DNA of 64,000 bases from a virus (IMGVR_UViG_3300010412_000009:5770-69769); one strand, 5' to 3'; positions 14,358-60,738 are shown, numbered from the stretch's first letter. Numbers and translations are program-made. The notes: a model not told the origin generated them from the letters alone.

Positions 14358-14360
14358 CTA

Positions 14361-33252: not shown

Positions 33253-33840
33253 TTATTGTTTCTGAATATTATCATCAATCAATACGTTCATTGGAATTTG
33301 TCCATTATACAAACTATCCACCTTTTCATCATGATCAAGTAAAAATGTTAATATTTTATCCTTAATACCTGTTTGCTTAATCCCCTCAGACACTTTTGGA
33401 CAATGAACAAAGTTTTCTAAGTTAGAAAGATTTAGATCATCGACACAAACCCAAGATGTTACATCATTCGACTCCAAAAATTGTTTAATTTCAATAACTC
33501 TAATGTCTTCAAGGTTATTACCATTCTTAACATCATTAAGTGATGGAGTGTATTCCAAGGGCATTTTTACCACACCCTGAGATTTATAATACTCTCTCAT
33601 CTCTTCAAGAGTTGCATGTTTTTTCCAATCCGAACTAATTACAATTTCTGCATTTGTTTTGATTAGAATTTCATTAAGAATTGCAACTGCCTTTCTATCA
33701 AAATTATCAAAACGGTGTAATACACTTAATTCAGACGAACTTTGTCCTCGTTTTCTTCGATGTCTTTGTTTAGTAAATCTACTTCCAAACTGTCTGGATG
33801 TTACGATTACCCCATCATGATCCAAAAAAATTACTTTCAT
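33253..33840 (-). CDS. HAD phosphatase (RNA-repair associated type)
   Basis: MKVIFLDHDGV, VISSDW, CVDD. Confidence 0.8.
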   Translation of the reverse strand: MKVIFLDHDGVIVTSRQFGSRFTKQRHRRKRGQSSSELSVLHRFDNFDRKAVAILNEILIKTNAEIVISSDWKKHATLEEMREYYKSQGVVKMPLEYTPSLNDVKNGNNLEDIRVIEIKQFLESNDVTSWVCVDDLNLSNLENFVHCPKVSEGIKQTGIKDKILTFLLDHDEKVDSLYNGQIPMNVLIDDNIQKQ

Positions 33841-34865
33841 AGTTTAGTAAATTCAGGTCTAATTGAATTCCATATCATATTATCAATATTATGTCCATTT
33901 CTAAGAGCGAAAAAATATCTCTTATTTGGATTATTGATTATTGATAATGCAAACTCTTTTTGTGTTACATCACCAAGTAGTTCATTAACGTTTTCATATT
34001 CAAAGATAATGCCTTTTTTCTTAGTATCAAAGTGATTTCTAAGATTATTCTCATAATCTTTTATTTTTGAATAGAATTCGTCTGGCACATCTTCAAGAAG
34101 TTGAGACATACTACCTCCATTAGATAACACCTCCCAAACTGCGGTTGTCGAGATATTTGTCATTATCTTGTGTAACCTTAAGTACTCGTCACTCTTAATC
34201 TTAACCCTATCGTTATTTGAGAACTTAATAACAAATCCTTCAAAATTAGATCCTATCATATCCTTAAGTGTGGAATAGTCAGAAATTCCATCATATTTCC
34301 TAACAACATCCACTTTTGATTCTTTAGATATATCTACAATATGAGAATATGAGTGTTCTGTACCACAAATAGTCTTAACAGCACCAAGTAACACTAGTTT
34401 TTCAACATCGCCATAATTAACAACAATCCTATTCCAAGGAGCAATAAACTCATATAGATATGTTGTATTTACATCCAAAATAGAAGTATTCATACTATCT
34501 ATAATTTGTTGAGCTGCAATTGCTTGATCTGAAGTAAAAGAACCTCTAGATGCTACAACCCACCTATCATTGTAATTAAATACAATAATTAACGATCCGT
34601 CCATTTTCTCATAAACTTCAAAATCTGACGTTGGTGAGTGCATATTTTCACTAAGGTTGAAAAACTTTCTAAATGGACGACCAACAATTTCACCTGTTAT
34701 TTCATTAATAACTAAGCCACGAGCCATTAATGTGATTTCATCCCATTTACCTTCGTATTGAGTATTCACACTATAATTCCATATACTTAAAGGAAAAGAT
34801 GGGTGAAATTGTGATATCACCCATCCTTCTTCTTTATATTCCCGTAATCTATTTAATAATTCCAT
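33837..34865 (-). CDS. T4 Rnl1-like RNA ligase
   Basis: ARGLV, PFRKFFN, EKMDGS (adenylated Lys), EGFV, KIKS..Y. Confidence 0.88.
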   Translation of the reverse strand: MELLNRLREYKEEGWVISQFHPSFPLSIWNYSVNTQYEGKWDEITLMARGLVINEITGEIVGRPFRKFFNLSENMHSPTSDFEVYEKMDGSLIIVFNYNDRWVVASRGSFTSDQAIAAQQIIDSMNTSILDVNTTYLYEFIAPWNRIVVNYGDVEKLVLLGAVKTICGTEHSYSHIVDISKESKVDVVRKYDGISDYSTLKDMIGSNFEGFVIKFSNNDRVKIKSDEYLRLHKIMTNISTTAVWEVLSNGGSMSQLLEDVPDEFYSKIKDYENNLRNHFDTKKKGIIFEYENVNELLGDVTQKEFALSIINNPNKRYFFALRNGHNIDNMIWNSIRPEFTKL

Positions 34866-34869
34866 AGTC

Positions 34870-35301
34870 TTATAATTTTACTGAAAAACGATTTCTCATC
34901 TTTTCAATATGTTCATCAGGAACATTATGGGTATTGATTCCATTATGTCGGTTCTCAACAATTATTGAAAATACCATATACCCATAAGTTTCAGCCAATT
35001 CAAAATACTTATCCATTTCCCATTCCATAGTAAATGTATTGGACACACCAATCTTAGGTACACCCCATTTCATAGCATCCTCAACACCTTTTTGACAATC
35101 AATATGAGCCTCTTTCAACAATGAAGAATCAAACTCATATACGCCATCATATTGATGTCTATTAAGTATTTCACCTGTTTCAGGATCTTTACTAACATAA
35201 AAATAACTATCAGCCTCAAACATCAAATCTGATATTGTTGATACCAATGTTGATTTGCCAGATCCTGGTAATCCTCTTACAATGTATAATATTTTTTTCA
35301 T
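34870..35301 (-). CDS. P-loop kinase, polynucleotide kinase-like
   Basis: RGLPGSGKST, SNTF, HNVP...EKM..RF. Confidence 0.8.
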   Translation of the reverse strand: MKKILYIVRGLPGSGKSTLVSTISDLMFEADSYFYVSKDPETGEILNRHQYDGVYEFDSSLLKEAHIDCQKGVEDAMKWGVPKIGVSNTFTMEWEMDKYFELAETYGYMVFSIIVENRHNGINTHNVPDEHIEKMRNRFSVKL

Positions 35302-35302
35302 G

Positions 35303-36040
35303 TTATTTCTTTTTCATCGTTGGTGATAGCCACAAATTTTTACCAAACACCGCTTCCATAAATTTAGGTTCAATAGAATCAATTTCTGAAAACAATCTAA
35401 GTGTTTTTATTGTGTCAGCACGCATCATTTTATCAACTTCCTCTCGAATTCTTTCAACACTAACAACCAATTCAAGTTTTTCAATCAAATTCGGTTGAAA
35501 CATTGCAATCCAAACTTTAGGGTCAATTCTAAATCCTTTAGTTACTGAGAACCTCAGGGCTCTCAACATTCTAAGAGGATCATCCATAAAAGTAACCTTA
35601 GGGTCCAATGGAGTGATTAGAACTTTATCTTTAAGAGCGAATTTCCCATCAAAAGGGTCGATAATATTACCATCAACATCCTCTGCCATTGCGTTTACTG
35701 TGAAATCTCTACGAATCAAATCATCTTCAAGAGTTCCAAGCTCCAAAATAGGTCTTCGTGTCCCTTCAACATACCCAACCTCTTTTCTAGCCATAACAAA
35801 ATCCGCAGTAGTTCCTTCAAATTTACTACCTTTAGGGAATTTTGCTCTGATTGTGAACATATCAGGTGTTGATAAGAATATTTCAAACCCTTCAGATTCC
35901 ATCCAAGATTTCATCTCAAAGAATCCTTCTTCAACAGATTTACTACAATCGTCAAGAACAAATGTAAAATCAATATCTTTAGAATCAATACCTAACAATT
36001 TGTCCCTAACACATCCACCGACTTTAAATAATTTTGGCAT
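35303..36040 (-). CDS. cca: CCA-adding tRNA nucleotidyltransferase / poly(A) polymerase family
   Basis: VGGCVRD.LLG...KDIDF, DL.RRDFTVNAMA, DDPLRMLRALRF. Confidence 0.88.
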   Translation of the reverse strand: MPKLFKVGGCVRDKLLGIDSKDIDFTFVLDDCSKSVEEGFFEMKSWMESEGFEIFLSTPDMFTIRAKFPKGSKFEGTTADFVMARKEVGYVEGTRRPILELGTLEDDLIRRDFTVNAMAEDVDGNIIDPFDGKFALKDKVLITPLDPKVTFMDDPLRMLRALRFSVTKGFRIDPKVWIAMFQPNLIEKLELVVSVERIREEVDKMMRADTIKTLRLFSEIDSIEPKFMEAVFGKNLWLSPTMKKK

Positions 36041-36112
36041 ATCTTAATTTCTTTGTATTACAAAGATACTATAATTTATTAGTACTAAAAAATATTATGA
36101 GGTAATTTTCAA

Positions 36113-36364
36113 TTAAAATTTATTCGCAATTTTAGTAATAAATTCAATTTCTTCATTTGATAAGAATAATCTGTTTTTACTCAATTTACTTAATAACTCT
36201 GAAAACATCTTATCATTAAGATTCTGATTATCTTTAACATAAAATAATTCAGGATATTCCTCCTTCAATATATCAACAAGTTCACGTAGTTCAGACGTAC
36301 TACAACTATCAATATACTCACTAGGATCAATATCAATATCACTACAAAGTTCAAAATTAGCCAT
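36113..36364 (-). CDS. hypothetical protein
   Basis: ORF. Confidence 0.55.
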   Translation of the reverse strand: MANFELCSDIDIDPSEYIDSCSTSELRELVDILKEEYPELFYVKDNQNLNDKMFSELLSKLSKNRLFLSNEEIEFITKIANKF

Positions 36365-36374
36365 AATTTCTATT

Positions 36375-37268: not shown

Positions 37269-37342
37269 TTTGTAGTGTTATAATTGATTAGACTACAAAT
37301 ATACAACATTATTTTCTATCCACAAAATATCAAGAAAAAAAA

Positions 37343-37759
37343 TTACAATAATAAATTCTTATTATCCAATGTCTCAAAATAGAATACACCTGAAAATGGC
37401 TTATCTTCCGTTATATCAAAATATTCCGCTATTTTTAATAAATATTGTTTTCTCTTTATTGATGTTTCAACTTTCGGATTTTTAGGTAGTTTCTTTAATC
37501 TTTCATGTAAACCACCTAAAAACCAATCACGAAATGTCTCCAAGGGTAACCCACCTTTATAATGGTTAATTAATCTTTGGGCTGGCATCAAATTATTAAT
37601 ATGATTCATTTCCAACAAATTAAGTTGATAACTTCTAACTTCAAATTCTATTTTTGGGATTAAATGATCAACTTGCCAATCATCCTCTAATAACGTTCCT
37701 GAATATGCACATCTCCCATCAAACTTATTATATACTAAATCCCTATCAATTTTCTTCAT
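37343..37759 (-). CDS. HNH endonuclease-like protein
   Basis: GRCAYSG...QVDHLIP...NL.PA...N.YK; start chosen at MKKID. Confidence 0.75.
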   Translation of the reverse strand: MKKIDRDLVYNKFDGRCAYSGTLLEDDWQVDHLIPKIEFEVRSYQLNLLEMNHINNLMPAQRLINHYKGGLPLETFRDWFLGGLHERLKKLPKNPKVETSIKRKQYLLKIAEYFDITEDKPFSGVFYFETLDNKNLLL

Positions 37760-38318
37760 AATATAAATCAAGAACAGATTTATTGAGAATGTCAATACAT
37801 TTGTTGGCAATTTCTTTCGTCAAACCAAATTTTCTACTAACCAAAATGAAATGTTCTCTTTGTCCATACAACATATCACTATCATCATCAAGAATAACAT
37901 AGTTTTCAACATCAGATTTATCTATCCATTCCTTTTGCCGATCCTTAGACCAATTAATTCTCTGAAAACCTTTATCCTTTAACCAATGTTTAATTTCAAC
38001 ACCTCTATCTATTACATAAGTACTATCGTTATGCTTATAAATAATTCTAGGCGTTTTATCTATCACTTCACCGACAAACCCACATTCTTTTAAGATATTA
38101 CCCAATTCTTCAGTTGTATGTCCAAGTCTCCACGTTGACGATACCACAACTTTAGCCCCTGTCTCACGAATGATATAATTTAAATTCTCGACAGATTCAG
38201 GATCTATATCACTTTCTGTACTAGCCTCACATTCACCACTCTTTATACTTTTATACCGCCTCTCATACCAATTTTCGTGATTTAAAACGCCATCAAAATC
38301 TAAAAATATTACTTTCAT
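37746..38318 (-). CDS. HAD phosphatase, paralogue of 33253..33840
   Basis: MKVIFLDFDGV, VVSSTWR, ILDDD. Confidence 0.8.
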   Translation of the reverse strand: MKVIFLDFDGVLNHENWYERRYKSIKSGECEASTESDIDPESVENLNYIIRETGAKVVVSSTWRLGHTTEELGNILKECGFVGEVIDKTPRIIYKHNDSTYVIDRGVEIKHWLKDKGFQRINWSKDRQKEWIDKSDVENYVILDDDSDMLYGQREHFILVSRKFGLTKEIANKCIDILNKSVLDLYYEEN

Positions 38319-38324
38319 TATTTA

Positions 38325-38672
38325 CTATTCAATAGGGTTGTCTTTCTCATATTCCAGTAACTTGAATTTCAACTCGCGGTTCTCTTCAATAATATTAATT
38401 ACAGATTTCAACATCACATACATAGCTGCATTATCAAACACAATAGGACGATTATCACCCACTAACTTATAGAGACTGTTTAATGTAATAAAATCAATAT
38501 CTTTAGAGATGCTTTTAGATATATAATTTCCCATATCCGCACTATGAGTAATGACTATAGGTATATTATCACCATCAAAATTCTCCAGACCTTCTTTTAT
38601 CAATTTAGTATGTCCTTTTTGTCTTGTTGAGATGTAGTACTCATACAATAATTTAAAATCACTATGTTTCAT
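38325..38672 (-). CDS. hypothetical protein
   Basis: ORF. Confidence 0.55.
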   Translation of the reverse strand: MKHSDFKLLYEYYISTRQKGHTKLIKEGLENFDGDNIPIVITHSADMGNYISKSISKDIDFITLNSLYKLVGDNRPIVFDNAAMYVMLKSVINIIEENRELKFKLLEYEKDNPIE

Positions 38673-38723
38673 AATTTATTCTTTTTTATTCCTAAAAAAA
38701 ATGTAAAATTATTTGATACCATA

Positions 38724-39140
38724 TTATAATGTATGATTTTCCCATTTTCCTTCAGGATATGAAGGATTTATATAACAAGATAGTTTATACCACCCCTTAT
38801 TATCTTTCTTTTTCCAATAACCACGATATGCATCTTCATCGTGAAATGGTGTTAAGTTTATTTGCTGGAATGTTTCAACGATTTTGTCTAAAAACATATT
38901 AGGAATATCATCACCTTCAAACTCAAACTCGCAACAAATCCAAACCTCACATTTCTCAGTTTTCCCATAACCATATGACAATAATTCAGGATAAAAAACA
39001 AGATAATAATCTTTGTTATTATATTTACACGTTAAACAAAAAGTATCCTGTTGTTTGAATTTATTAGGGAATGTCTTTAACAATAAATCTTGGATTTCCT
39101 CAATCTCTTTATTAGTCTCAACGGCTAAATTAATATCCAT
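38724..39140 (-). CDS. hypothetical protein
   Basis: ORF. Confidence 0.55.
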   Translation of the reverse strand: MDINLAVETNKEIEEIQDLLLKTFPNKFKQQDTFCLTCKYNNKDYYLVFYPELLSYGYGKTEKCEVWICCEFEFEGDDIPNMFLDKIVETFQQINLTPFHDEDAYRGYWKKKDNKGWYKLSCYINPSYPEGKWENHTL

Positions 39141-39186
39141 TCTTTTTTCTTTAAATATAGATAAAAATATTTAAACTATCAAATAG

Positions 39187-39269
39187 TACCGAAGGAGGGT
39201 CTCGAACCCCCACGTCATTATGACAACACCTTTTGAGGATGCCGTGTCTACCAATTCCACCACTCCGGC
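39187..39269 (-). tRNA. tRNA-Leu(CAA)
   Basis: cloverleaf with variable arm; anticodon loop CT-CAA-AA. Confidence 0.9.
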
Positions 39270-39270
39270 A

Positions 39271-39346
39271 TGGAGCGAATGATGGGATTCGAACCCACAA
39301 CCATCTGCATGGCAAGCAGATACTCTACCAATTGAGCTACATTCGC
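39271..39346 (-). tRNA. tRNA-Gly(GCC)
   Basis: cloverleaf, loop TT-GCC-AT, encoded CCA. Confidence 0.92.
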
Positions 39347-39359
39347 AAATGAAACCTAA

Positions 39360-39572
39360 CTACTTAGGTTTCCATTGAGTATTTCTGTTATGCTTCCAAG
39401 TTTTGTACATTCGTACCTGATATGGTAACAGAAATTTTTTCTTTCGTTTATATCCTTTTGGATAGTAGTACCCCCAACCTTCATCATAATAGATTGGGAA
39501 TCTTTTTTTGAGACAGATTCTATTGTATGTTCTACTATCTGTCGTCGTCTTTAAAACAATAACATCTTTCAT
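39360..39572 (-). CDS. small basic hypothetical protein
   Basis: ORF between tRNAs. Confidence 0.5.
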   Translation of the reverse strand: MKDVIVLKTTTDSRTYNRICLKKRFPIYYDEGWGYYYPKGYKRKKKFLLPYQVRMYKTWKHNRNTQWKPK

Positions 39573-39640
39573 TTTAATTAGGTTTTAGTAAACCTAACTA
39601 AATGTACCTCTATTTCTGAACTTCATATTTACAAGTTTTG

Positions 39641-39714
39641 TGGGCCCTGTAGGACTTGAACCTACGACTTTTTGATTATGAGTCAAACGTTCTGACCAAC
39701 TGAACTAAGAGCCC
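39641..39714 (-). tRNA. tRNA with CAT anticodon, probably Ile2 (or elongator Met)
   Basis: canonical cloverleaf, GGGCTCT acceptor, loop CT-CAT-AA. Confidence 0.88.
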
Positions 39715-39756
39715 TGTTTGTTCTACAAAGATATTAAAAAAGATGGAGAGTTCAAA

Positions 39757-40812
39757 CTATTCTCCACCTTCAATTAAAAATTTATTTGAAATAACCTTAA
39801 AACTAATACTGTTATCTCGACTTCTAACAACAATACCCTCCCTTTCTTTATTCGGATTTAATTGAGACTTACCCTCAGCGAATGATAAGATTTCATCAAT
39901 CGCTTTAGGTAATTCAAATTCACCTGATTGAAAAAGAACTGGAACTGTCTCAAGTTTAAGTTCATCTCTTACGATCTTAATAAATTTGTCATACTTAACT
40001 TTTGTTTGAGTGTCAATATCAAACAAGTTGAAAATTCTGACAGTTTGTCCTTTAATCTTATATGGATTACCTTGAATACCCTCACCAATAAGTTCACCTT
40101 GAACTGCAACATTAAAATTCAAAGATGCTAATTTATCCTTAAGGTTTAATTGTTTCGCGACAGACCAAAAAGAGTTTGTATCTTCTTCAAGAAGTTCCAA
40201 ATTTCGAGAGCATACACCAAACTCACCATTATTGTAATAATAAGTCGCAGATGTACCATCCAGTTTTTCAGTCACATAAAACTCAAATGGAATTGACGTA
40301 TTTACCCATTCTTTATATTCCTCAACAAGATTCTGAACTCTTTCTTCATCTGTTTTTGGAATAAATGACGGAAACCATCCCTTAATTTTTCCAGACAACT
40401 GAGCAGGAATTGGTTTTTCATATTTGATAATTCCCAACATATCGGTAACGTCCAAACCTTCAAACCAATCCATTGTCAAATTATTCGTTTTCCTCTCGTA
40501 GATAGAATATCCATCTTTAAGAGGAATAATCAATCCTTGACTAATCTGACCTCTCAATCTAATAGTCTTCAATCTAAAGCCCTCAGTTCCATCTGCTAGT
40601 TTAATATACGATGTTTTTCTCAGGAACTCAAATTCAGGTTCAATCGGAAGAAGACTATCAATCTCACAATAAACAACCAAATCGCCCACTTTATGTCCAA
40701 CATTTTTTGCAACAACAACTTTCCACCCATCAACAGTAGCCACTTCAATCATATCCGCATTTGGAATAGGTTGAATATCTTTAATTCTTCTAATTTTTGC
40801 TAATTCTCTCAT
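39757..40812 (-). CDS. RNA ligase, DRB0094-like family
   Basis: N-terminal OB-like IPNAD.IE...GW.VV, PKTDEERVQN, TEKLDGTS, QGELIG.GIQGN, EGIV, FKVISNKFL. Confidence 0.85.
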   Translation of the reverse strand: MRELAKIRRIKDIQPIPNADMIEVATVDGWKVVVAKNVGHKVGDLVVYCEIDSLLPIEPEFEFLRKTSYIKLADGTEGFRLKTIRLRGQISQGLIIPLKDGYSIYERKTNNLTMDWFEGLDVTDMLGIIKYEKPIPAQLSGKIKGWFPSFIPKTDEERVQNLVEEYKEWVNTSIPFEFYVTEKLDGTSATYYYNNGEFGVCSRNLELLEEDTNSFWSVAKQLNLKDKLASLNFNVAVQGELIGEGIQGNPYKIKGQTVRIFNLFDIDTQTKVKYDKFIKIVRDELKLETVPVLFQSGEFELPKAIDEILSFAEGKSQLNPNKEREGIVVRSRDNSISFKVISNKFLIEGGE

Positions 40813-45999: not shown

Positions 46000-46090
46000 T
46001 TCCCCCGGTGAGACTCGAACTCACATCCAATACGTTAAAAGCGTATGGCTTGTTCCCTTTCGGTACTAATTCCAATTCAGCTACGGAGGA
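46000..46090 (-). tRNA. tRNA-Lys(TTT) with enlarged D-loop (91 nt)
   Basis: acceptor TCCTCCG/CGGGGGA, anticodon ATACG-CTTTTAA-CGTAT, normal T arm; 28 nt between D-stem strands including CC-GAAA-GG. Confidence 0.8.
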
Positions 46091-53137: not shown

Positions 53138-53153
53138 TTTTTTATAGTTTTAG

Positions 53154-53223
53154 TTGCGTCAATCGGATTCGAACCGATCGACCTGTGGATATGAGCCACT
53201 GGTGTACACCTAGTACTGACGCA
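53154..53223 (-). tRNA. atypical tRNA-like RNA, CAT anticodon, minimal D-arm (70 nt)
   Basis: acceptor TGCGTCA/TGACGCA, D hairpin GTAC-TAGGT-GTAC with no 8-9 linker, GTGG-CTCATAT-CCAC, T arm ATCGG-TTCGAAT-CCGAT. Confidence 0.7.
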
Positions 53224-53317
53224 ATGTAATTGATAACAAAGATACTAAAAAATTTTTAAATCACAAAAAAAAAATGGTAGGGAACGTATTTCCATCCCAA
53301 ATCACGTAATCTATCCA

Positions 53318-53764
53318 TTATTTTCGTTTAACATATAATATCTTAGGATAATATCCAAAAGTGTAAACAGTAACGGGACATAACCAAATTACCATATCTG
53401 GAATTCCTGTTGTGTCAGTCCAAACATAATCCCTACCAATATCATTATAACCATCAACTCGTTCTAATTTATGGTATGGTGTAGGAAATATTGATTTACT
53501 AACAACGACAGTAAATTCTCTTTCTTCATTTGGATTCTCATTGAATATGGTTTCACACATTGTTTCTGCACCTGAAACCATTGCCAAATGTTCCACAGGT
53601 CCAGGATATTCGTCAAATTTAACAAACCATTCATATGGTCTAGGACTACGGAATATAATTTCAATCCTTCCTGTGAATAGGAATTTAATCATCCTACCCA
53701 ACATAATAAAAATAAATTTTATATTTTTCATAATATTAATATCTCCATTTATGATAATCATCAT
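53318..53764 (-). CDS. hypothetical protein (DUF6717-like)
   Basis: MV.GA..M and IWLCP....FG.YP..LY motifs. Confidence 0.5.
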   Translation of the reverse strand: MMIIINGDINIMKNIKFIFIMLGRMIKFLFTGRIEIIFRSPRPYEWFVKFDEYPGPVEHLAMVSGAETMCETIFNENPNEEREFTVVVSKSIFPTPYHKLERVDGYNDIGRDYVWTDTTGIPDMVIWLCPVTVYTFGYYPKILYVKRK

Positions 53765-53845
53765 TATTCATACCACCTAACGCAAAAATAATAAATAAAA
53801 ATATCCCAAGGATAATTAATGCTGTTTTCATTTTTAATTATTTTG

Positions 53846-53983
53846 TTAATCCAAATAACTTTTTACATCACTGAACTTATATTTGTCACCAATAAGAAAT
53901 TTACCATCTTTGAACACGCTATAAGATTGAGTATTCGCATTAAAGTAAATTGAAAACCCGTTTTTTTGTTTTACTAATAACAT
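53846..53983 (-). CDS. small hypothetical protein
   Basis: start moved to MLLVK because the track's longer ORF overlaps a tRNA. Confidence 0.45.
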   Translation of the reverse strand: MLLVKQKNGFSIYFNANTQSYSVFKDGKFLIGDKYKFSDVKSYLD

Positions 53984-53997
53984 AATGTTTATTTTAG

Positions 53998-54071
53998 TAC
54001 CCCCATCAGGACTCGAACCTGAAACCTCGTGATTAAGAGTCACGAGCTCTAACCAATTGAGCTATGAGGGT
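53998..54071 (-). tRNA. tRNA-Lys(CTT)
   Basis: cloverleaf, loop CT-CTT-AA. Confidence 0.9.
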
Positions 54072-54087
54072 ATGTTAATCCAATTTT

Positions 54088-54369
54088 CTAATTCCCAACT
54101 CTTTTAATGTGATACAATTTTCCATTAATATCTAACCACCATTCATTCCTATTTGGATTATTTCGACATATATTCAATATATGTTGTTTTATTTCATTAT
54201 CTGTTAATATATCATAATGTTCAATATGAAAAATGTCGTCAGGTGATGGTTTTTGTCTACTTATACCATACAATTTGTCCATTTTAGACATGTGACGAAG
54301 AGAAGCATTGAACAATATAATAACAAATATTATAACTACAATAATTCCAAAAATCAATTCACCACTCAT
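54088..54369 (-). CDS. small membrane protein
   Basis: N-terminal TM helix, TATCTTTG upstream. Confidence 0.55.
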   Translation of the reverse strand: MSGELIFGIIVVIIFVIILFNASLRHMSKMDKLYGISRQKPSPDDIFHIEHYDILTDNEIKQHILNICRNNPNRNEWWLDINGKLYHIKRVGN

Positions 54370-54405
54370 ACAACAAAGATAATGAAAAATTTCAGCATAT
54401 CAAAT

Positions 54406-54933
54406 TTATGCAAATTTAAATTGTTTCAACCATTTGCGAAGTTTTACTTGTGTCTCACCACCTATCATTTCTTCCCACTCATCATACACACCATCCACAC
54501 CTGGAAAATCATAATCTTCATTTCTCAACTCAAGATAATCTTCAAAGTCAGGAAAATTTTCCTTGTCCCAAATTCTATCATCAACCAGGAATACTACCGC
54601 AGTAAGTTGATTACCCAAGTCAGGTTCAACAAATTCAGCACATCGTATCTTATTATCCAATAACCAATCTCGGTGTTGATTTAGTGTTCCTTGAGCAATT
54701 CCTGAAAAATCTCGGTTGTGATTAGTCGTACCACCGTTCAGGATGATGAATGTTTTATCATTTGTCGCCCAATCATAATAAACAGATTCATATTCGGATT
54801 GTTCCAAACTAGTAATGTCTGTACAATATTTGAGTTGATATTCCACAACAGCGTGACCGAATTGGATGCCTTGCTGAATTGGTGATAAGTTATAAGGGAC
54901 TAACCCATACATTCTATACCTTCTTTGTTCCAT
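54406..54933 (-). CDS. peptidyl-tRNA hydrolase type 2-like protein
   Basis: L...Q..IQ.GHA, K..I.L, F.EPDL.NQLTA motifs; start moved to MEQRR. Confidence 0.65.
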   Translation of the reverse strand: MEQRRYRMYGLVPYNLSPIQQGIQFGHAVVEYQLKYCTDITSLEQSEYESVYYDWATNDKTFIILNGGTTNHNRDFSGIAQGTLNQHRDWLLDNKIRCAEFVEPDLGNQLTAVVFLVDDRIWDKENFPDFEDYLELRNEDYDFPGVDGVYDEWEEMIGGETQVKLRKWLKQFKFA

Positions 54934-54963
54934 ATTTATTTTGTGTTTTAATAAAAAAAATTG

Positions 54964-55037
54964 TTCCCCCGCTGGGGCTCGAACCCAGGACCCCCACTTT
55001 AAAAGAGTGGTGCATCTACCAACTGAGCTACGGAGGA
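54964..55037 (-). tRNA. tRNA-Lys(TTT), canonical size
   Basis: cloverleaf, loop CT-TTT-AA; same acceptor stem as 46000..46090. Confidence 0.9.
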
Positions 55038-55049
55038 ATATCACTACAA

Positions 55050-55526
55050 TTACCTTGGTTTACCACCGAAATATTTTTCGGCGGCTTCCACAAAGTATTC
55101 CCTAAATTCAGGAGAATTATTAAACAACTCCCAAACTTTATCTTTATCAAAGACAACCTCATCCACTTTAACCGCTTCAGGATCTTCTCTTTGTGTAACA
55201 TCTTGAAATCCAAGATCTAGTAACATTTGTTTGACCGCATCAGGACTATAATTCCAATACTTATCACTCTCACCGATTTCGATATCATAAATTTCCTTAA
55301 ACAAATCAGTACAAGCCAACATACCTTGTATTGATTCTGGAAACACTTCTATTTTGGGACAGTCTAAAAACTTCCAGCTAATACAAAATTCCACAAAATC
55401 ATCATCATCGTCACCAACCATTATCCAAATTTCGGGATCACAGTTTCTATTATAAAACCAAGATTCATGATATACAACAAAACTTCTTTTCATGTCATTT
55501 ATTTTAATCTGATTACAAAGATACAA
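55050..55526 (-). CDS. hypothetical protein (start probably downstream of the promoter at 55516)
   Basis: ORF. Confidence 0.55.
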   Translation of the reverse strand: MYLCNQIKINDMKRSFVVYHESWFYNRNCDPEIWIMVGDDDDDFVEFCISWKFLDCPKIEVFPESIQGMLACTDLFKEIYDIEIGESDKYWNYSPDAVKQMLLDLGFQDVTQREDPEAVKVDEVVFDKDKVWELFNNSPEFREYFVEAAEKYFGGKPR

Positions 55527-55570
55527 AATATTTTTGAGTTATCAAAAGATTATATAATTATTGTTAAATT

Positions 55571-55756
55571 TTAATATTCAGGAAACCATTCTAATATTGT
55601 CACACCATATTCAGGCTCAATACCAAGAGCATGCTGACAATGATATTTCGCCTCATTATATCTAATAAAAACACTATCGTCAGGAGTACTATATATACTT
55701 AACAATTGAATACCTATCTCGGTATCAAAAATCTTATTAACCATTTCTTGTGTCAT
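55571..55756 (-). CDS. small hypothetical protein
   Basis: start moved to MTQEM to avoid the tRNA. Confidence 0.5.
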   Translation of the reverse strand: MTQEMVNKIFDTEIGIQLLSIYSTPDDSVFIRYNEAKYHCQHALGIEPEYGVTILEWFPEY

Positions 55757-55770
55757 AGTATTATATTTAG

Positions 55771-55842
55771 AGGTCGGGGTGGGATTTGAACCCACGTACA
55801 GAGTTTTGCAGACTCGCTTCTAACCCCTCGAAGCACCCGACC
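55771..55842 (-). tRNA. tRNA-Cys(GCA)
   Basis: cloverleaf, loop CT-GCA-AA, U discriminator. Confidence 0.88.
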
Positions 55843-55849
55843 TAATTAA

Positions 55850-56173
55850 TTATCCCTTAACAATAAGTTCCACAGGTTCAGCACCTTCTTCAAGCCAATG
55901 TTCAACCAAACCTTCTGTTTCAGATGTGAGATAATAGATGTGAGTATAAGGATCTCTCCAGTTAACACTCGTATCACCTTCCCTATTCCAAACACTAATA
56001 AGCCCTTTTTTCACCAAAGAACCGACAACACCTCTAACAACTCTAGGACTCAAGTTTGTTTCTGCACAAACTTCACCGAGTCCAACATCACTAAATCCAC
56101 GTTCTGCATACATTTCATTAACAAGAGCATCAATTACTTGTTTTTCCATCGGAGTGACTGTTACTTGTTTCAT
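55850..56173 (-). CDS. winged helix-turn-helix-like protein
   Basis: EVCAETNLSPRVVRGVVGSLVKKGLI pattern. Confidence 0.6.
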   Translation of the reverse strand: MKQVTVTPMEKQVIDALVNEMYAERGFSDVGLGEVCAETNLSPRVVRGVVGSLVKKGLISVWNREGDTSVNWRDPYTHIYYLTSETEGLVEHWLEEGAEPVELIVKG

Positions 56174-56260
56174 AATCGTGTTTTTTTGTATTGTTATGAC
56201 ACAAAGATAAGAACTTATTACAAAATAACCAAATTATCTAAGAATTAATTTATCGCATCA

Positions 56261-56455
56261 TTATACGATATTATCATTAGCACGAAGTAAAGTTTCCATA
56301 AATTGACAAACACGAGTAGTTGCCCAATCATCAGGAACTTTACAATCAATTTCGACACCATGTCTTGTTGTCATCTCAACAATTCTCTTATCACTGAAAT
56401 AAGTGGCAATTGATGAATTTCTTTGGAAAACGATTTTAATAATATCTTCTTTCAT
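56261..56455 (-). CDS. hypothetical protein
   Basis: ORF behind TATCTTTG promoter. Confidence 0.5.
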   Translation of the reverse strand: MKEDIIKIVFQRNSSIATYFSDKRIVEMTTRHGVEIDCKVPDDWATTRVCQFMETLLRANDNIV

Positions 56456-56505
56456 ATGTGTAAATTATTTAGGTATCAAAGATACAAAAAAAAAAGAAAT
56501 GGTAA

Positions 56506-57396
56506 CTATTTTTTTCTCCTTTTTAACACTTCGTCTCTAGAGACAAGAAAACTTAATTTAGGATTTGGATTATCCTCAGAATAAGGTAACACATTCTCCA
56601 ATCGTCTTTCACAAAGATTAACATATTCTTCATTAATATCAATTCCAATATAATGTCTTTTATTCATCTTTGCCATTTTTAGAGTTGTCCCGCTACCTGC
56701 CATCGGATCCAAAACAACGTCACCTACATCCGACCAACTTAAAATATGATCTTCAGCCAAACTTTCAGGAAATATTGCGGGATGTTGATGAGCATAATCA
56801 TCTTTGGATGAAAATCCTTTGCCGTTATTAATATACCACACATTATATCTTGTACCATATTCACCAACCACGAACTTATCTGATTTCTTCAAATCACCAT
56901 CTTTTGTTCTTGCAGATGGTGTCCCAAAATTAGTATGTCCAGCCCATCTATTTGGTTTATCTTTTAAAAGGTTAACAGTCTTTGGCTTTCCTTTGGAAAA
57001 GACAAACATGTACTCAAATACTTGAGAATATCTACCAACCTCAGGAAATGGAGCACCATTTTTATGATATATCATTGTATCATATAATGTGAATCCAATC
57101 TCCATAAACTTAAGTGCTTGTTTAAAAGAACTCCCCGTCTCACCTCCGTTCTTAACCTGGTCATTTACCACCCAAACAACAACACCACCATTTTTTGTGA
57201 CTCGATATAACTCACGAGCCATTTCTACAAATGGAAAACTGAAACCATCTTCATAGACAATCTCATCTTTAATCTTACCATTATAACTTCTTAAATTATC
57301 ATATGGCGGTGATGTTACTGTTAAGTCAATAACATTATCATCGAAAGTCTTTAATACCTTTACGGCATCCCCTAAATATGTTTTGTTGTATTTCAT
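56506..57396 (-). CDS. DNA N4-cytosine/N6-adenine methyltransferase (beta class)
   Basis: TSPPY, HPA.FP, VLDPM.GSGTT; start chosen at MKYNK. Confidence 0.9.
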   Translation of the reverse strand: MKYNKTYLGDAVKVLKTFDDNVIDLTVTSPPYDNLRSYNGKIKDEIVYEDGFSFPFVEMARELYRVTKNGGVVVWVVNDQVKNGGETGSSFKQALKFMEIGFTLYDTMIYHKNGAPFPEVGRYSQVFEYMFVFSKGKPKTVNLLKDKPNRWAGHTNFGTPSARTKDGDLKKSDKFVVGEYGTRYNVWYINNGKGFSSKDDYAHQHPAIFPESLAEDHILSWSDVGDVVLDPMAGSGTTLKMAKMNKRHYIGIDINEEYVNLCERRLENVLPYSEDNPNPKLSFLVSRDEVLKRRKK

Positions 57397-57411
57397 GTTA
57401 TATATTATATA

Positions 57412-57600
57412 AAAAAAATGGGGTCGGGACAAGGCATCCCGAACACCCTTCTTTCTATCATTTGTAGTTTCTATTTTACGTCTAAAAACACGTTAGGTAA
57501 CAAAAGAGACGCTTCACATTCGGTGTTGCCCGTCCAAAATCGCCATTGTCTTTTAAGTTTTAGACTAAACTATGTTGTCTTCATTTGGCAGAACCCCAAT
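57412..57600 (-). ncRNA. candidate ~185-nt structured RNA ending in a terminator-like hairpin
   Basis: TGGGGT/ACCCCA ends, TAGTTT/AAACTA and GTCTAAAA/TTTTAGAC helices, TCGGGA/TCCCGA hairpin then T-run. Confidence 0.4.
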
Positions 57601-57613
57601 CAAAAAATCACCT

Positions 57614-57695
57614 TGGTTGCGTTTGGAAGATTCGAACTTCCCCCGGATCCGTCGATCAACACGGCTCATGAGACCGTCAGTACACCATTAACGCA
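57614..57695 (-). tRNA. atypical tRNA-like RNA, CAT anticodon, no D-stem, long variable region, encoded CCA
   Basis: TGCGTT/AACGCA acceptor, ACGGT-CTCATGA-GCCGT, T arm GGAAG-TTCGAAT-CTTCC, ACCA end. Confidence 0.7.
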
Positions 57696-57795
57696 TGATA
57701 CTTCTGTTCATTTAAATAGCGATTGGAAGAGTACCCACTCAATTACTGCCATCAGACAAACCAACCCCTCTTACGGAAAAACTATTTTTTATTAG

Positions 57796-57937
57796 TGGTG
57801 TAATTAGGACTCGAACCTAAATTTTCCTCGGACATGCACCGAGACGATGTAGATTATCCTCAAGTAATAACTTTAGTGGAACGTTACTCACCTATAACTT
57901 ACTCTCATAGGACAATACCCAATTCATCTTTTACACC
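57796..57937 (-). tRNA. 142-nt tRNA-like RNA with a 75-nt structured D-loop
   Basis: acceptor GGTGTAA/TTACACC, D-stem GATG/CATC, CTCGG-TGCATGT-CCGAG, T arm TTAGG-TTCGAGT-CCTAA. Confidence 0.75.
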
Positions 57938-57950
57938 ATAAGTTAATTAG

Positions 57951-58037
57951 TGGCGAGAGGGAGATTCGAACTCCCACACCTTTCGGTTCTTGGGTTATGA
58001 GCCCAAGGAGGCATCGCCAGCAGCCTTCATTCTCGCA
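57951..58037 (-). tRNA. initiator-like tRNA-Met(CAT) with long variable arm
   Basis: 1:72 T/C mismatch, anticodon stem CTTGGG/CCCAAG with three G-C pairs, variable hairpin ACC-GAAA-GGT. Confidence 0.75.
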
Positions 58038-58045
58038 ATTTATTG

Positions 58046-58117
58046 ATCCTCTGTGGAGAATCGAACTCCATTATCCGGTTTACAAGACCGGCGCATCACC
58101 TTTTATGCTTCAGAGGA
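58046..58117 (-). tRNA. tRNA-Thr(TGT)
   Basis: cloverleaf, loop CT-TGT-AA. Confidence 0.85.
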
Positions 58118-58415
58118 AGATAATTCCTTGTTATTTAGTTTAAAACAAACTACCTATCAAACTACCTAACAAATATAAGAAAGGATAGAATAATAAACAA
58201 GCAATAGCAATTATTTTTTTATATTTTTCCATCCTTATAAATACATAGGAATTACCAAGGAATTCCTTTTTTCTTTGAAGTTTCATGCAATAGTTGTTTA
58301 ACCATCTTTTTTGCCAAGGTATTTAGTTTTTGTCCTTCAACAACTTCACCTTGTTTGAATGCTCGTTCAACAACAAGTTCATTCTTTTCATTAAAATACT
58401 CAACTTCGTGTGATT

Positions 58416-60547: not shown

Positions 60548-60648
60548 AAACCCCCCACCTGCCAACCAAGGAATACGCCGCGCAACGTACGTCTGTCCAA
60601 ACTGCACAATATGACAGAACTTAGGATTCGAACCTAACGGTGGAGTTT
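60548..60648 (-). ncRNA. circularly permuted tRNA-like RNA (YrlA/Y RNA-like)
   Basis: order: closing strand AAACTCCACC, T arm TTAGG-TTCGAAT-CCTAA, looped stem TCTGTC/GACAGA, hairpin TACGT/GCGTA, closing strand GGTGGGGGGTTT. Confidence 0.6.
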
Positions 60649-60656
60649 CTTAATTG

Positions 60657-60738
60657 CGGTAGGTACTGGATTCGAACCAGTGCATCCTTTCAGATGACAG
60701 TTTAGCAAACTGCTGCATTACCGCTCTGCCAACCTACC
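60657..60738 (-). tRNA. tRNA-Ser(GCT)
   Basis: cloverleaf with variable arm, loop TT-GCT-AA. Confidence 0.9.

What the first reader, a model, noticed from the sequence alone, without database searches (positions are those of the whole stretch)
53154..58037. Cluster of four architecturally aberrant CAU-anticodon RNAs
Seen: besides a canonical CAU tRNA at 39641 there are four odd ones: 53154 (70 nt, tiny D hairpin), 57614 (no D-stem, long variable region, encoded CCA), 57796 (giant D-loop) and 57951 (1:72 mismatch, three G-C anticodon pairs, class II-type variable arm). Three start TGCG; 53154 and 57614 also share GGTGTAC and GT(C/T)GATCG. Known: weak 1:72, G2-C71 and C3-G70 are initiator/formylation determinants, and initiator tRNA is a target of VapC and some GNAT toxins; initiator tRNAs normally lack a long variable arm. 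Inference: a diversified set of initiator-tRNA mimics, acting as anti-defence decoys or alternative initiators.
Basis: partly seen in the sequence, partly recalled or inferred. Interest (0 to 1): 0.8.

Follow-up and report, generated by a model that had tools for sequence, protein, structure and literature searches.

The report
Four odd-shaped phage methionine-type tRNAs
A large T4-like phage from sediment carries four differently rebuilt tRNA-like genes with the methionine anticodon; three belong to conserved phage-only designs that standard tRNA finders miss or score low, so they are real genes, but their use is untested.

Summary
All four RNAs are on the minus strand at the stated places, inside the tRNA array of a T4-like jumbo-phage fragment. 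They are four different things, not one set of initiator mimics.

- 57951-58037 has every sequence mark of a bacterial initiator tRNA, plus an extra variable-arm hairpin. This design occurs in 49 viral contigs and in the cultured phage crAss001. None of the 6 hits in 185,579 cellular species genomes was a clean case.
- 57617-57695 has no D-arm. A covarying 3-bp long-range helix brackets the anticodon arm and variable hairpin. It matches a model built from six other phage and metagenome sequences at 79.7 bits.
- 53154-53223 is a compact 70-nt tRNA. Its relatives have a paired 1:72 and either CAU or UAU, so it is elongator type (Met, or Ile-AUA).
- 57797-57937 is tRNA-shaped with about 75 nt inside the D-loop and G33. 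No homologue was found. Its layout recalls T4 species 1 RNA.

The decoy idea is untested. I think working tRNAs reshaped under tRNA-targeting defence are more likely. This scan has already found the extra-arm initiator and the rewired CAU designs on other DNA. I found no paper describing them.

The parts
57951..58037 (-). cand4: initiator-type tRNA(CAU) with an extra variable-arm hairpin. It has U1.C72, G2-C71, C3-G70, a 4-nt connector before a 4-bp D stem, three G-C pairs in the anticodon stem, and a 3-bp variable stem with a GAAA loop. No CCA is encoded.
   Evidence: ARAGORN. Model R2, built from 3 other phages, scores 51.4 bits, E 1.5e-12, full length.
57797..57937 (-). cand3: 141-nt tRNA-shaped RNA. 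It has the acceptor GGTGTAA/TTACACC, the D stem GATG/CATC enclosing about 75 nt that start AATTGG, the anticodon-like arm CTCGG-TGCATGT-CCGAG (G33), and the T arm TTAGG-TTCGAGT-CCTAA.
   Evidence: Sequence. Fold z -2.13. Layout scans. No Rfam match. No analogue was found by pattern.
57614..57695 (-). cand2: tRNA(CAU)-like RNA with no D-arm; core 57617-57695 plus an encoded CCA. It has a 6-bp acceptor with an A7.A66 mismatch, an 11-nt connector, the anticodon arm ACGGT-CTCATGA-GCCGT (U31.G39, G37), the variable hairpin GATC-GACG-GATC, and a T arm.
   Evidence: Model R1, built from 6 other sequences, scores 79.7 bits, E 7e-18.
57678..57680 (-). cand2: 5' strand (CUG) of the 3-bp long-range helix that stands where the D stem would be.
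   Evidence: Columns 16-18 pair with columns 52-54 of alignment A2. All 3 pairs change on both sides and 91.7% of cells are paired.
57643..57645 (-). cand2: 3' strand (CGG) of the same long-range helix, lying after the variable hairpin.
53154..53223 (-). cand1: compact 70-nt elongator-type tRNA(CAU). It has a 7-bp acceptor (U1-A72), the D hairpin GTAC-TAGGT-GTAC, an 8-bp anticodon helix, the loop CTCATAT, a 2-nt variable region and a T arm.
   Evidence: ARAGORN. Model R3, built from 4 other phage sequences, scores 73.2 bits, E 8.5e-22, with no indels.
39640..39714 (-). Canonical CAU tRNA, most like tRNA-Ile2 (read as AUA after lysidine modification).
   Evidence: Rfam 75.4 bits. The best E. 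coli matches are genes annotated tRNA-Ile, at 74.7% identity over the full length with a weak E of 0.01.
58045..58117 (-). tRNA-Thr(UGU), 7 nt upstream of cand4 on the same strand; probably the same transcript.
57424..57442 (-). Terminator-like hairpin plus T run at the end of the non-coding block 58117-57415 (weak evidence).
   Evidence: 1 found, against 2.4 expected from shuffles.
33253..36040 (-). Context: RNA-repair and tRNA-maturation genes. HAD phosphatase (33253-33840), Rnl1-type RNA ligase (33837-34865), P-loop kinase (34870-35301) and CCA-adding enzyme (35303-36040). A second HAD lies at 37746-38318 and a second RNA ligase at 39757-40812.
   Evidence: Pfam.

Best explanation
The four RNAs are genuine tRNA-derived genes of four different designs in the tRNA array of a T4-like jumbo phage. 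Three are members of conserved, phage-borne, non-cloverleaf or decorated tRNA families. They most likely work in translation.

(1) cand4 is the phage's initiator tRNA. The CAU anticodon and A73 should let the host MetRS charge it. The U1.C72 mismatch with G2-C71 and C3-G70 should allow formylation and exclude EF-Tu. The three G-C pairs should direct it to the P site. An extra hairpin projects from the variable region.

(2) cand1 is a compact elongator tRNA. It reads AUG as Met or, if its C34 is lysidinylated, AUA as Ile.

(3) cand2 is a rewired CAU tRNA. Its D stem is replaced by a 3-bp helix that brackets the anticodon arm and the variable hairpin. Its acceptor copies that of the phage's own elongator-type CAU tRNA.

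(4) cand3 is a tRNA-shaped stable RNA with a large D-loop insertion and G33. It probably does not decode, and it is laid out like T4 species 1 RNA.

Shown here: the anatomy, membership of the families, covariation, and restriction to phages. Inferred: charging, formylation and use on the ribosome. Also inferred: the reshaped bodies persist because they keep the synthetase and ribosome determinants while changing the surfaces that tRNA-cutting defence nucleases or toxins grip.
For: Family membership was tested with models that exclude the window. R1 finds cand2 at 79.7 bits. R2 finds cand4 at 51.4 bits, against 37 for the next hit, a tRNA-Ser. R3 finds cand1 at 73.2 bits, against 38.6 for the next hit, a tRNA-Ile(GAU).

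The extra-arm initiator class gave 52 matches and 43 distinct sequences from 49 viral loci plus the window. In the 36 I aligned, 1:72 is unpaired in 28, U-A in 6, A-U in 2 and never G-C. G2-C71 holds in 35/36 and C3-G70 in 36/36. 90.6% of cells are paired and the covariation score is 0.618 against 0.174 for shuffles, 0/500 reaching it. Variable stems differ in sequence between lineages.

The same pattern in 185,579 cellular species genomes gave 6 hits, none a clean case. The cultured phage crAss001 carries one: R2 36.2 bits and an ARAGORN tRNA-Met of 88 nt.

In the D-armless family (8 sequences, about 5 lineages), 93.1% of cells are paired and 15 of 24 pairs change on both sides. 7:66 is never paired (8/8). 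All 3 pairs of the long-range helix covary.

Three of the 5 D-armless lineages also carry an extra-arm initiator in the same record. In the L060 lineage the D-armless RNA starts a few bases after an initiator-like tRNA.

The phage encodes a CCA-adding enzyme, two RNA ligases, a kinase and two phosphatases. These fit tRNAs that lack an encoded CCA and an arms race over tRNA cleavage.

A bacterial Schlafen defence nuclease cuts the anticodon arms of tRNA-Met(CAU), tRNA-Ile(CAU) and tRNA-Lys(UUU) (PMC13056530, passages read).

AUA is used at 22.9 per 1000 codons, against 25.8 for AUG, so both need decoders.
Against: There are no expression, processing, charging or modification data of any kind.

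Rfam's tRNA model reaches its cut-off for none of the four.

cand2's own MFE is no better than shuffles (z -0.05).

G37 after CAU in cand2 and cand3 is not what AUG-reading tRNAs normally carry (recalled). G33 in cand3 argues against decoding.

cand3 has no homologue, so selection on it is not shown.

The families were fished with patterns taken from the window's own motifs. The GGG/CCC and T-loop invariance is therefore by construction. The family samples are small: the effective sequence numbers of the models are 1.25, 1.02 and 2.3.

In 15 of the 43 extra-arm sequences the variable region shows no hairpin of 3 bp or more in its MFE.

The Ile2 call for 39640 rests on a blastn E of 0.01.

Nothing links the shape changes to any particular nuclease.
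Confidence: 0.5

Rival explanations
1. The four are initiator-tRNA mimics that act as decoys, soaking up initiator-targeting toxins such as VapC-type nucleases or GNAT acetyltransferases, or they serve as alternative initiators.
For: cand4 has all the initiator marks. cand1 and cand2 share the TGCG...CGCA-A acceptor. Model R1 ranks cand4 and cand1 directly after cand2 and above all ordinary tRNAs of the window. Several other phages carry two to five CAU tRNAs, including both normal-size and extra-arm initiator types. The phage has RNA-repair genes.
Against: cand1's relatives have a paired 1:72, C-G in one lineage, and UAU in two lineages. cand3 has G1-C72 and G33. A decoy need not keep every charging, formylation and P-site determinant, as cand4's class does. 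No toxin or antitoxin gene was identified beside them among the ORFs I scanned (30 proteins). That initiator tRNA is a VapC or GNAT target is recalled and was not checked here.
Confidence: 0.15
2. Relaxed selection. The odd shapes are decaying or neutrally drifting tRNA duplicates in an array whose functions the host can cover, and they have no adaptive meaning.
For: Phage arrays hold many irregular tRNAs. In the 49 fetched loci plus the window, ARAGORN calls class I tRNAs of 80 nt or more for Asn 5/26, Trp 4/17, Cys 3/13, Lys 3/31 and Thr 3/26. cand3 has no homologue and a non-standard anticodon loop. cand2 has no thermodynamic signal.
Against: Three of the four keep their exact architecture in unrelated contigs through compensatory changes, including the unusual parts: the variable stem, the long-range helix and the 7:66 mismatch. 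All 5 compact sequences, including cand1, are exactly 70 nt. The extra-arm initiators keep G2-C71 and C3-G70 almost invariantly.
Confidence: 0.15
3. A role outside translation. Some of them, cand2 and cand3 above all, are stable tRNA-like RNAs. They might bind or titrate a protein such as a processing, modification, repair or defence enzyme. They might pair through their CAUG-containing loops; cand2's loop holds the 6-nt palindrome TCATGA. The role of T4 species 1 and 2 RNAs is likewise unknown.
For: T4 carries two small stable RNAs, rnaC of 139 nt and rnaD of 119 nt, at the end of its tRNA cluster. The rnaC MFE shows a terminal stem, a hairpin of about 60 nt in the 5' half, another hairpin and a T arm, which is the layout of cand3. 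The loop TCATGA with its flanking GG/CC is kept in all D-armless lineages, although the viral pattern fixed only part of it.
Against: There is no sequence similarity between cand3 and rnaC beyond the T loop. cand2 keeps an acceptor, A73, an encoded CCA and a 7-nt CAU loop, which is what a chargeable tRNA needs. The loop-pairing idea is my own speculation.
Confidence: 0.15

Closest known systems
Bacterial initiator tRNA-fMet (E. coli metZWV/metY type)
   Same: cand4 and its class have the CAU anticodon, a mismatched or weak 1:72, G2-C71, C3-G70, A73 in most members, and three G-C pairs next to the anticodon loop.
   Different: They carry a base-paired extra arm of 11-22 nt where cellular initiators have 4-5 nt. 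cand4's subfamily also has 4 nt instead of 2 between the acceptor and the D stem. None of the 6 hits in cellular genomes was a clean case.
Class II tRNAs (Leu, Ser, Tyr, Sec) of bacteria
   Same: They have a hairpin in the variable region. tRNA-Ser and tRNA-Leu are the next-best hits of model R2, and Rfam's tRNA-Sec model gives cand4 its best, sub-threshold, score.
   Different: The anticodon and the acceptor marks are those of an initiator. The 8/4 or 9/3 acceptor/T layout of Sec-like tRNAs does not fit: the Rfam alignment needs six mismatched pairs.
D-armless mitochondrial tRNA-Ser(AGY) of animals
   Same: cand2 lacks a D stem-loop and keeps the acceptor, anticodon and T arms.
   Different: cand2 belongs to a phage of bacteria. 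It has a variable hairpin and a covarying 3-bp helix bracketing the anticodon arm and that hairpin. It also keeps a GG-containing connector.
Phage T4 species 1 RNA (rnaC), a small stable RNA at the end of the T4 tRNA cluster
   Same: The size is similar (139 nt against 141 nt). Both lie inside the tRNA array of a T4-like phage. Both have a terminal stem, a long hairpin in the 5' half, a further hairpin and a canonical T arm.
   Different: There is no sequence similarity beyond the T loop. cand3 has a cleaner cloverleaf frame. The function of rnaC is itself unknown (recalled).
allo-tRNAs and other natural non-canonical tRNAs (review PMC7609411, passages read)
   Same: They are natural tRNAs, found in metagenomes, that depart from the 7/5 cloverleaf.
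   Different: allo-tRNAs are 8/4 or 9/3 Sec-like Ser acceptors. The review does not contain the words phage, virus, initiator or fMet.
Phage tRNAs that escape anticodon nucleases by anticodon-loop substitutions (PMC10264068; search listing and start of the abstract only)
   Same: The proposed logic is the same: keep decoding and change what the nuclease recognises.
   Different: Here whole arms are added, lost or rewired, not single loop bases. No nuclease is identified.

Membership tests
Bacterial initiator tRNA (cand4) | CAU anticodon in a 7-nt loop with U33 | tested here: met
   The loop is CTCATAA.
Bacterial initiator tRNA (cand4) | Mismatched or weak 1:72 pair, with G2-C71 and C3-G70 (the role of these marks as formylation determinants is recalled) | tested here: met
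   cand4 has U1.C72, G2-C71 and C3-G70. In the class, 28/36 are unpaired at 1:72, 35/36 have G2-C71 and 36/36 have C3-G70.
Bacterial initiator tRNA (cand4) | Three consecutive G-C pairs closing the anticodon stem | tested here: met
   GGG/CCC is present. Across the class it was fixed by the search pattern, so it is not informative there.
Bacterial initiator tRNA (cand4) | Short (4-5 nt) variable loop | tested here: not met
   The variable region is 14 nt with a 3-bp stem and a GAAA loop.
Bacterial initiator tRNA (cand4) | Charged by MetRS, formylated, and bound by IF2 in the P site | not testable with these tools
   This needs biochemistry.
Phage extra-arm initiator class (cand4) | Full-length match to a structure model built from other phages, variable stem included | tested here: met
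   R2 scores 51.4 bits, E 1.5e-12. Every modelled pair is standard except 1:72.
Phage rewired (D-armless) tRNA(CAU) family (cand2) | Full-length match to a model built from six other sequences | tested here: met
   R1 scores 79.7 bits, E 7e-18.
Phage rewired (D-armless) tRNA(CAU) family (cand2) | A 3-bp long-range helix in place of the D stem, a variable hairpin, and an unpaired 7:66 | tested here: met
   Columns 16-18 with 52-54: all 3 pairs change on both sides. 7:66 is unpaired in 8/8. The variable stem changes on both sides in 3 of 4 pairs.
Compact 70-nt NAU tRNA family (cand1) | Same length and architecture: a 4-bp D stem with a 5-nt loop, an 8-bp anticodon helix, and the loop CT-N-ATAT | tested here: met
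   R3 scores 73.2 bits, E 8.5e-22, with no indels. All 5 distinct sequences, cand1 included, are 70 nt.
Initiator tRNA (cand1) | Mismatched 1:72 and three G-C pairs in the anticodon stem | tested here: not met
   cand1 has U1-A72 paired and only two G-C pairs followed by U-A. Its relatives have C1-G72 or U1-A72, and two lineages have UAU.
Rfam tRNA RF00005 (all four) | Score at or above the gathering cut-off of 29 bits | tested here: not met
   None of the four is listed at the gathering threshold. cand2 scores 18 bits. cand3 has no match. cand4's best score is 31.1 bits to tRNA-Sec, against a cut-off of 47.
T4 species 1 RNA, rnaC (cand3) | Sequence homology | tested here: not met
   The MAFFT pair aligns only at the T loop.
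T4 species 1 RNA, rnaC (cand3) | Same layout and the same place in a T4-like tRNA array | tested here: inconclusive
   The MFE layouts are alike and the T4 annotation was checked, but this compares two single folds.
Decoy for initiator-targeting toxins | Binds or is cut by the toxin and spares host tRNA-fMet | not testable with these tools
   No toxin partner was identified. This needs an assay.

The most novel reading that the evidence does not exclude
Phages have evolved a parallel set of re-engineered CAU tRNAs: an initiator with a grafted arm, a tRNA whose D stem is rebuilt around the anticodon arm, and a compact 70-nt form. These keep the determinants for MetRS, formyltransferase and the ribosome but are invisible to, or uncuttable by, host nucleases and toxins that shut down initiation and AUG/AUA decoding. 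One T4-like phage that stacks three such designs plus a species-1-like RNA, next to its own CCA enzyme and RNA-repair kit, would then be a snapshot of an arms race over the start of translation. The rewired form would be the first working non-cloverleaf tRNA used on bacterial ribosomes.
Probability: 0.3. Interest if true: 0.85.

Novelty: new variant of a known kind. Interest (0 to 1): 0.68.

Why it matters
Textbooks reserve the long variable arm for Leu, Ser, Tyr and Sec tRNAs and treat the loss of the D-arm as a mitochondrial oddity. Here both appear on methionine-type tRNAs of phages. They are conserved through compensatory changes, and they are missed or under-scored by ARAGORN and Rfam, so phage tRNA inventories are systematically incomplete.

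If these RNAs are charged and used, they show how far a tRNA body can be rebuilt and still serve bacterial synthetases and ribosomes. That matters for tRNA engineering. They would also point to initiator and Met/Ile tRNAs as a battleground between phages and tRNA-cutting defences. The cultured phage crAss001 carries the extra-arm initiator, so the question is testable at the bench.

Tried and rejected
**Looking for close relatives of this phage**
- blastn of both regions against 50,697 phage records gave no match.
- The single RNAs gave only partial hits of 26-43% of the query.
- The search for related loci with the neighbouring 378-aa and 93-aa proteins found no relative in viral contigs.
- The search for homologous proteins with the 378-aa protein returned only itself.
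- The listing of cluster members for 10 neighbouring ORF translations: 6 were found, and all were clusters of one.

**Patterns that led nowhere**
- My first pattern joining the cand1 and cand2 motifs gave 0 hits.
- The cand3 pattern gave 2 loci with one identical, non-tRNA sequence, which I take as chance.
- The metagenome scan for the D-armless motif gave 9 loci. Six repeated known sequences and 3 were new variants. None was a relative of this phage.

**Expression**
- No RNA holder was listed.
- Read laying on 4 DNA runs (contigs) showed an 854-nt contig of run X12 covering 57696-58300 with 17 differences and 1 insertion. Its first 25 letters are unlike the window beyond 57695. The table did not list the positions of those differences, so they could not be used for covariation.

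**Promoter and terminator scan**
- 39 promoter-like sites were found against 29.2 +/- 4.8 in shuffles, and 1 terminator-like site against 2.4. This is not informative.

**Considered and rejected**
- cand4 as a Sec-like or allo-tRNA: the 9-bp acceptor alignment needs mismatches.
- cand4 as a Leu, Ser or Tyr tRNA: the anticodon and acceptor are wrong for that.
- The 6 cellular hits as true extra-arm initiators: 2 are archaeal with longer inserts, 3 contain runs of N, and 1 has a disrupted T arm.
- L049:2644-2776 and L036:126-232 as cand3 analogues: their interiors differ and the second has z -0.36.

**Literature**
- Paper searches for the designs returned no paper describing an initiator tRNA with a long variable arm or a D-armless tRNA in phages.
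Those of large phage-genome or tRNA surveys might list such genes.

**Rows dropped**
- 7 of the 43 distinct extra-arm sequences were left out of alignment A1. L014 and L040 have D-loop inserts. L019 and L028 have irregular T arms. L020 and L035 have uncertain 5' ends. L033 is nearly identical to L004.
- Of the 22 loci, I judged 7 to be family members by eye. The other 15 are ordinary tRNAs with the motif elsewhere, or non-tRNA DNA.

Full report
**Setting.** The window is 64 kb of a 69.8-kb viral record that CheckV rates about 21% complete. It encodes a T4-type portal protein and a T4-type large terminase. G+C is 31%. ARAGORN finds 18 tRNAs, all on the minus strand, and Rfam finds 16 tRNAs and a tmRNA. 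The phage also encodes a CCA-adding enzyme, an Rnl1-type and a second RNA ligase, a P-loop kinase and two HAD phosphatases of the RNA-repair type. Laid contigs from public metagenome runs labelled marine sediment, lagoon and soil cover parts of the stretch at high identity. No RNA run was listed.

**Checking the observation.**
- ARAGORN calls cand1 (53153-53223) and cand4 (57952-58036) as tRNA-Met. It misses cand2 and cand3.
- Rfam's tRNA model reaches its cut-off for none of the four.
- cand1, cand3 and cand4 fold better than shuffles (z -3.05, -2.13 and -2.44). cand2 does not (z -0.05).
- A scan for a T arm followed by a closing 7-bp acceptor recovers cand1, cand3 and cand4 along with the ordinary tRNAs. 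It gave 40 hits, against 0-12 in 20 shuffles.

**cand4 is an initiator-type tRNA with an extra arm.** I scanned viral contigs for an initiator anticodon arm followed 17-32 nt later by the T loop. This gave 49 contigs and, with the window, 52 matches and 43 distinct sequences. They lie in tRNA arrays of large phages, several of which also carry a tmRNA.

In an alignment of 36 of the 43 (7 dropped, listed under Tried and rejected):
- the 1:72 position is unpaired in 28, U-A in 6, A-U in 2 and never G-C;
- G2-C71 holds in 35/36 and C3-G70 in 36/36;
- the four standard stems are 90.6% paired, with a covariation score of 0.618 against 0.174 in shuffles, 0/500 reaching it.

The GGG/CCC pairs and the T loop were fixed by the pattern and carry no weight. 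The variable region folds into a hairpin of at least 3 bp in 28 of the 43, with different stem sequences and often a GNRA loop. The other 15 have 2 bp or none.

cand4 is closest to L010, L022 and one L031 sequence. Those share its unusual 4-nt connector, its 4-bp D stem (all four pairs exchanged) and its 3-bp variable stem. A model built from those three alone finds cand4 as the best hit in the window, at 51.4 bits and E 1.5e-12. The next hits are tRNA-Ser at 37 bits and tRNA-Leu at 34.9 bits.

The same pattern in one genome of each of 185,579 bacterial and archaeal species gave 6 hits. Two are archaeal genes with longer inserts, three contain runs of N, and one has a disrupted T arm. None is a clean extra-arm initiator.

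I checked. Model R2 hits its record at 5720-5806 with 36.2 bits. ARAGORN calls an 88-nt tRNA-Met there, with C1.A72 and a 4-bp variable hairpin, though only two G-C pairs next to the loop.

**cand2 is a rewired, D-armless tRNA(CAU).** A pattern taken from cand2 and from an odd ARAGORN call in L030 found 22 viral loci. Seven of them share the whole architecture. A tighter pattern found 9 metagenome loci, which added 3 new variants. That makes 8 distinct sequences in about five lineages.

The shared features are:
- a 6-bp acceptor starting TG(C/T)G;
- an unpaired 7:66 in 8/8;
- an 11-nt connector containing ATGGTGTA;
- an anticodon arm with a U.G closing pair and a loop of the form (C/T)TCATGA;
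- a 4-bp variable hairpin;
- a T arm and A73.

Prompted by earlier notes of this scan on other genomes, I tested a helix between the three bases just before the anticodon arm and three bases after the variable hairpin. All three pairs change on both sides (CUG/CGG, GGA/UCC, AGG/CCU, GGG/CCC). 91.7% of cells are paired, and the misses come from the poorly aligned L030 row. For the whole structure, 93.1% of cells are paired and 15 of 24 pairs change on both sides. Sliding the partners drops pairing to 34-51%.

A model built from the six non-window, non-L030 sequences finds cand2 at 79.7 bits and E 7e-18. cand4 (23.2 bits) and cand1 (20.6 bits) rank next, ahead of every ordinary tRNA.

The D-armless RNA tends to travel with initiator-type genes. 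In three of the five lineages an extra-arm initiator lies in the same record: the window, L030, and L069 with L001. In the L060 lineage the D-armless RNA begins a few bases after an initiator-like tRNA.

Its acceptor resembles that of the same phage's elongator-type CAU tRNA: TGCGTTA against cand1's TGCGTCA here, and TGCGATA against TGCGATG in L060 and L065.

The same model also picks up a 64-nt CAU mini-tRNA with no D arm and no variable arm at L025:6616-6679, and 70-nt tiny-D forms in L077 and L080.

**cand1 is a compact elongator-type tRNA.** A pattern from its D loop and anticodon loop found 6 viral loci with 4 distinct sequences. All 5 sequences, cand1 included, are exactly 70 nt with the same partition. 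Two lineages carry CAU and two carry UAU. The 1:72 pair is C-G or U-A.

A model built from those four finds cand1 at 73.2 bits and E 8.5e-22 without indels. The runner-up is the phage's own tRNA-Ile(GAU) at 38.6 bits, which has the same ATAT on the 3' side of the loop. That model contains two UAU sequences, which favours Ile-like hits.

These features argue against an initiator role. They fit Met or AUA-Ile decoding.

The canonical CAU tRNA at 39640 best matches E. coli genes annotated tRNA-Ile, at 74.7% identity over its full length with a weak E of 0.01. It may therefore be the lysidine-dependent AUA reader, which would leave cand1 as elongator Met. AUA codons are nearly as common as AUG, at 22.9 against 25.8 per 1000.

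**cand3 remains a singleton.** It has a perfect acceptor, D stem, anticodon-like arm and T arm. About 75 nt are folded inside the D loop after AATTGG. Its loop TGCATGT puts G where U33 is nearly universal (recalled). I found no analogue and no Rfam match.

T4's own record annotates two small stable RNAs at the end of its tRNA cluster. The 139-nt rnaC folds into a terminal stem, a long 5' hairpin, a second hairpin and a canonical T arm. That is the same layout as cand3, but there is no sequence similarity beyond the T loop.

**Interpretation.** The anatomy and family membership are shown. Function is inferred. Because cand4's class keeps each initiator determinant, and cand2 keeps an acceptor, A73, CCA and a CAU loop, I think working tRNAs are more likely than pure decoys. 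cand1's family looks like ordinary elongators in a smaller body.

Why the bodies are rebuilt is open. The phage's repair genes fit selection by tRNA-cutting defences. So does the published cleavage of Met(CAU), Ile(CAU) and Lys(UUU) anticodon arms by a phage-activated Schlafen nuclease (PMC13056530, passages). No nuclease is tied to these RNAs.

Points against my reading:
- there are no expression data;
- Rfam scores are sub-threshold;
- G37 in cand2 and cand3, and G33 in cand3, are unusual;
- the family samples are small and were ascertained with the window's own motifs;
- E-values from the short calibration are rough.

**Comparison with what is known.** The review of non-canonical natural tRNAs that I could read by passages never mentions phages or initiators (PMC7609411). 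Seven paper searches returned no description of these designs. Supplements could not be opened.

Within this scan, the extra-arm initiator has been reported on many other genomes: 23 notes in at least 21 genomes hold all the words I searched. The rewired CAU or UAU tRNAs have also been reported on several genomes. My results agree with those notes. For this window they add the compact family, the co-occurrence of the designs, and the T4 species-1 parallel.

Noticed in passing
window 46001-46090 (-): A 90-nt tRNA-Lys(UUU)-like gene with about 17 extra nt, including a CC-GAAA-GG mini-hairpin, in the D loop. It has the same acceptor (TCCTCCG/CGGGGGA) as the normal tRNA-Lys(UUU) at 54965-55037. 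ARAGORN and Rfam at the gathering threshold do not call it. My scan and models R2 and R3 pick it up at 22-24 bits.
   Followed up: partly
window 13933-14360 (+): A phage-encoded tmRNA (Rfam 71.3 bits). ARAGORN did not call it. Several of the other phages with extra-arm initiators also carry a tmRNA.
   Followed up: no
window 33253-40812 (-): An RNA-repair and tRNA-maturation gene set: two HAD_SAK_2 phosphatases, an Rnl1-type ligase, an AAA_33 kinase, a CCA-adding enzyme and a second RNA ligase with a PHA02142 OB domain.
   Followed up: partly
L014:5696-5794 and L040:1944-2044: Extra-arm initiator tRNAs that also carry a GNRA-capped mini-hairpin inside the D loop, so two insertions in one tRNA. 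ARAGORN misses both.
   Followed up: no
49 viral loci L001-L049 plus the window: Many tRNAs that normally have short variable loops are 80 nt or longer in these phage arrays: Asn 5/26, Trp 4/17, Cys 3/13, Lys 3/31, Thr 3/26, and 2 each for Asp, Glu, Gly, Ile, Pro and Val. Extra arms are therefore not confined to CAU tRNAs.
   Followed up: no
L025:6616-6679 (-): A 64-nt CAU mini-tRNA with no D arm and no variable arm, but with GGG/CCC next to the loop and an unpaired 7:66. It lies in a phage that also has an extra-arm initiator.
   Followed up: no
L060:about 10200-10285, and the same in L067 and L068: An initiator-like CAU gene with a reduced D region lies directly upstream of the D-armless RNA and is not called by ARAGORN. 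The sister lineage L065 has a normal initiator-like tRNA at that place.
   Followed up: no
L049:2644-2776 (-): A 133-nt RNA with a perfect 7-bp acceptor and a T arm but a non-tRNA interior (z -3.01), in a phage with five CAU tRNAs.
   Followed up: partly
window 57696-58300 against run X12: A contig about 97% identical to the window covers cand3, cand4 and tRNA-Thr. Its first 25 letters stop matching exactly where cand2 begins (57695), so the relative may lack cand2 or have a diverged copy.
   Followed up: no
window 60614-60729 (-): A second T arm (TTAGG-TTCGAAT-CCTAA) with a possible closing stem lies between tRNA-Ser and tRNA-Asn. Models R1 and R3 give it weak partial hits.
   Followed up: no
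L049:884-958 (-): A normal-size CAU tRNA whose loop has G at position 37 (TTCATGC). CAU followed by G37 therefore also occurs in canonical phage tRNA frames.
   Followed up: no
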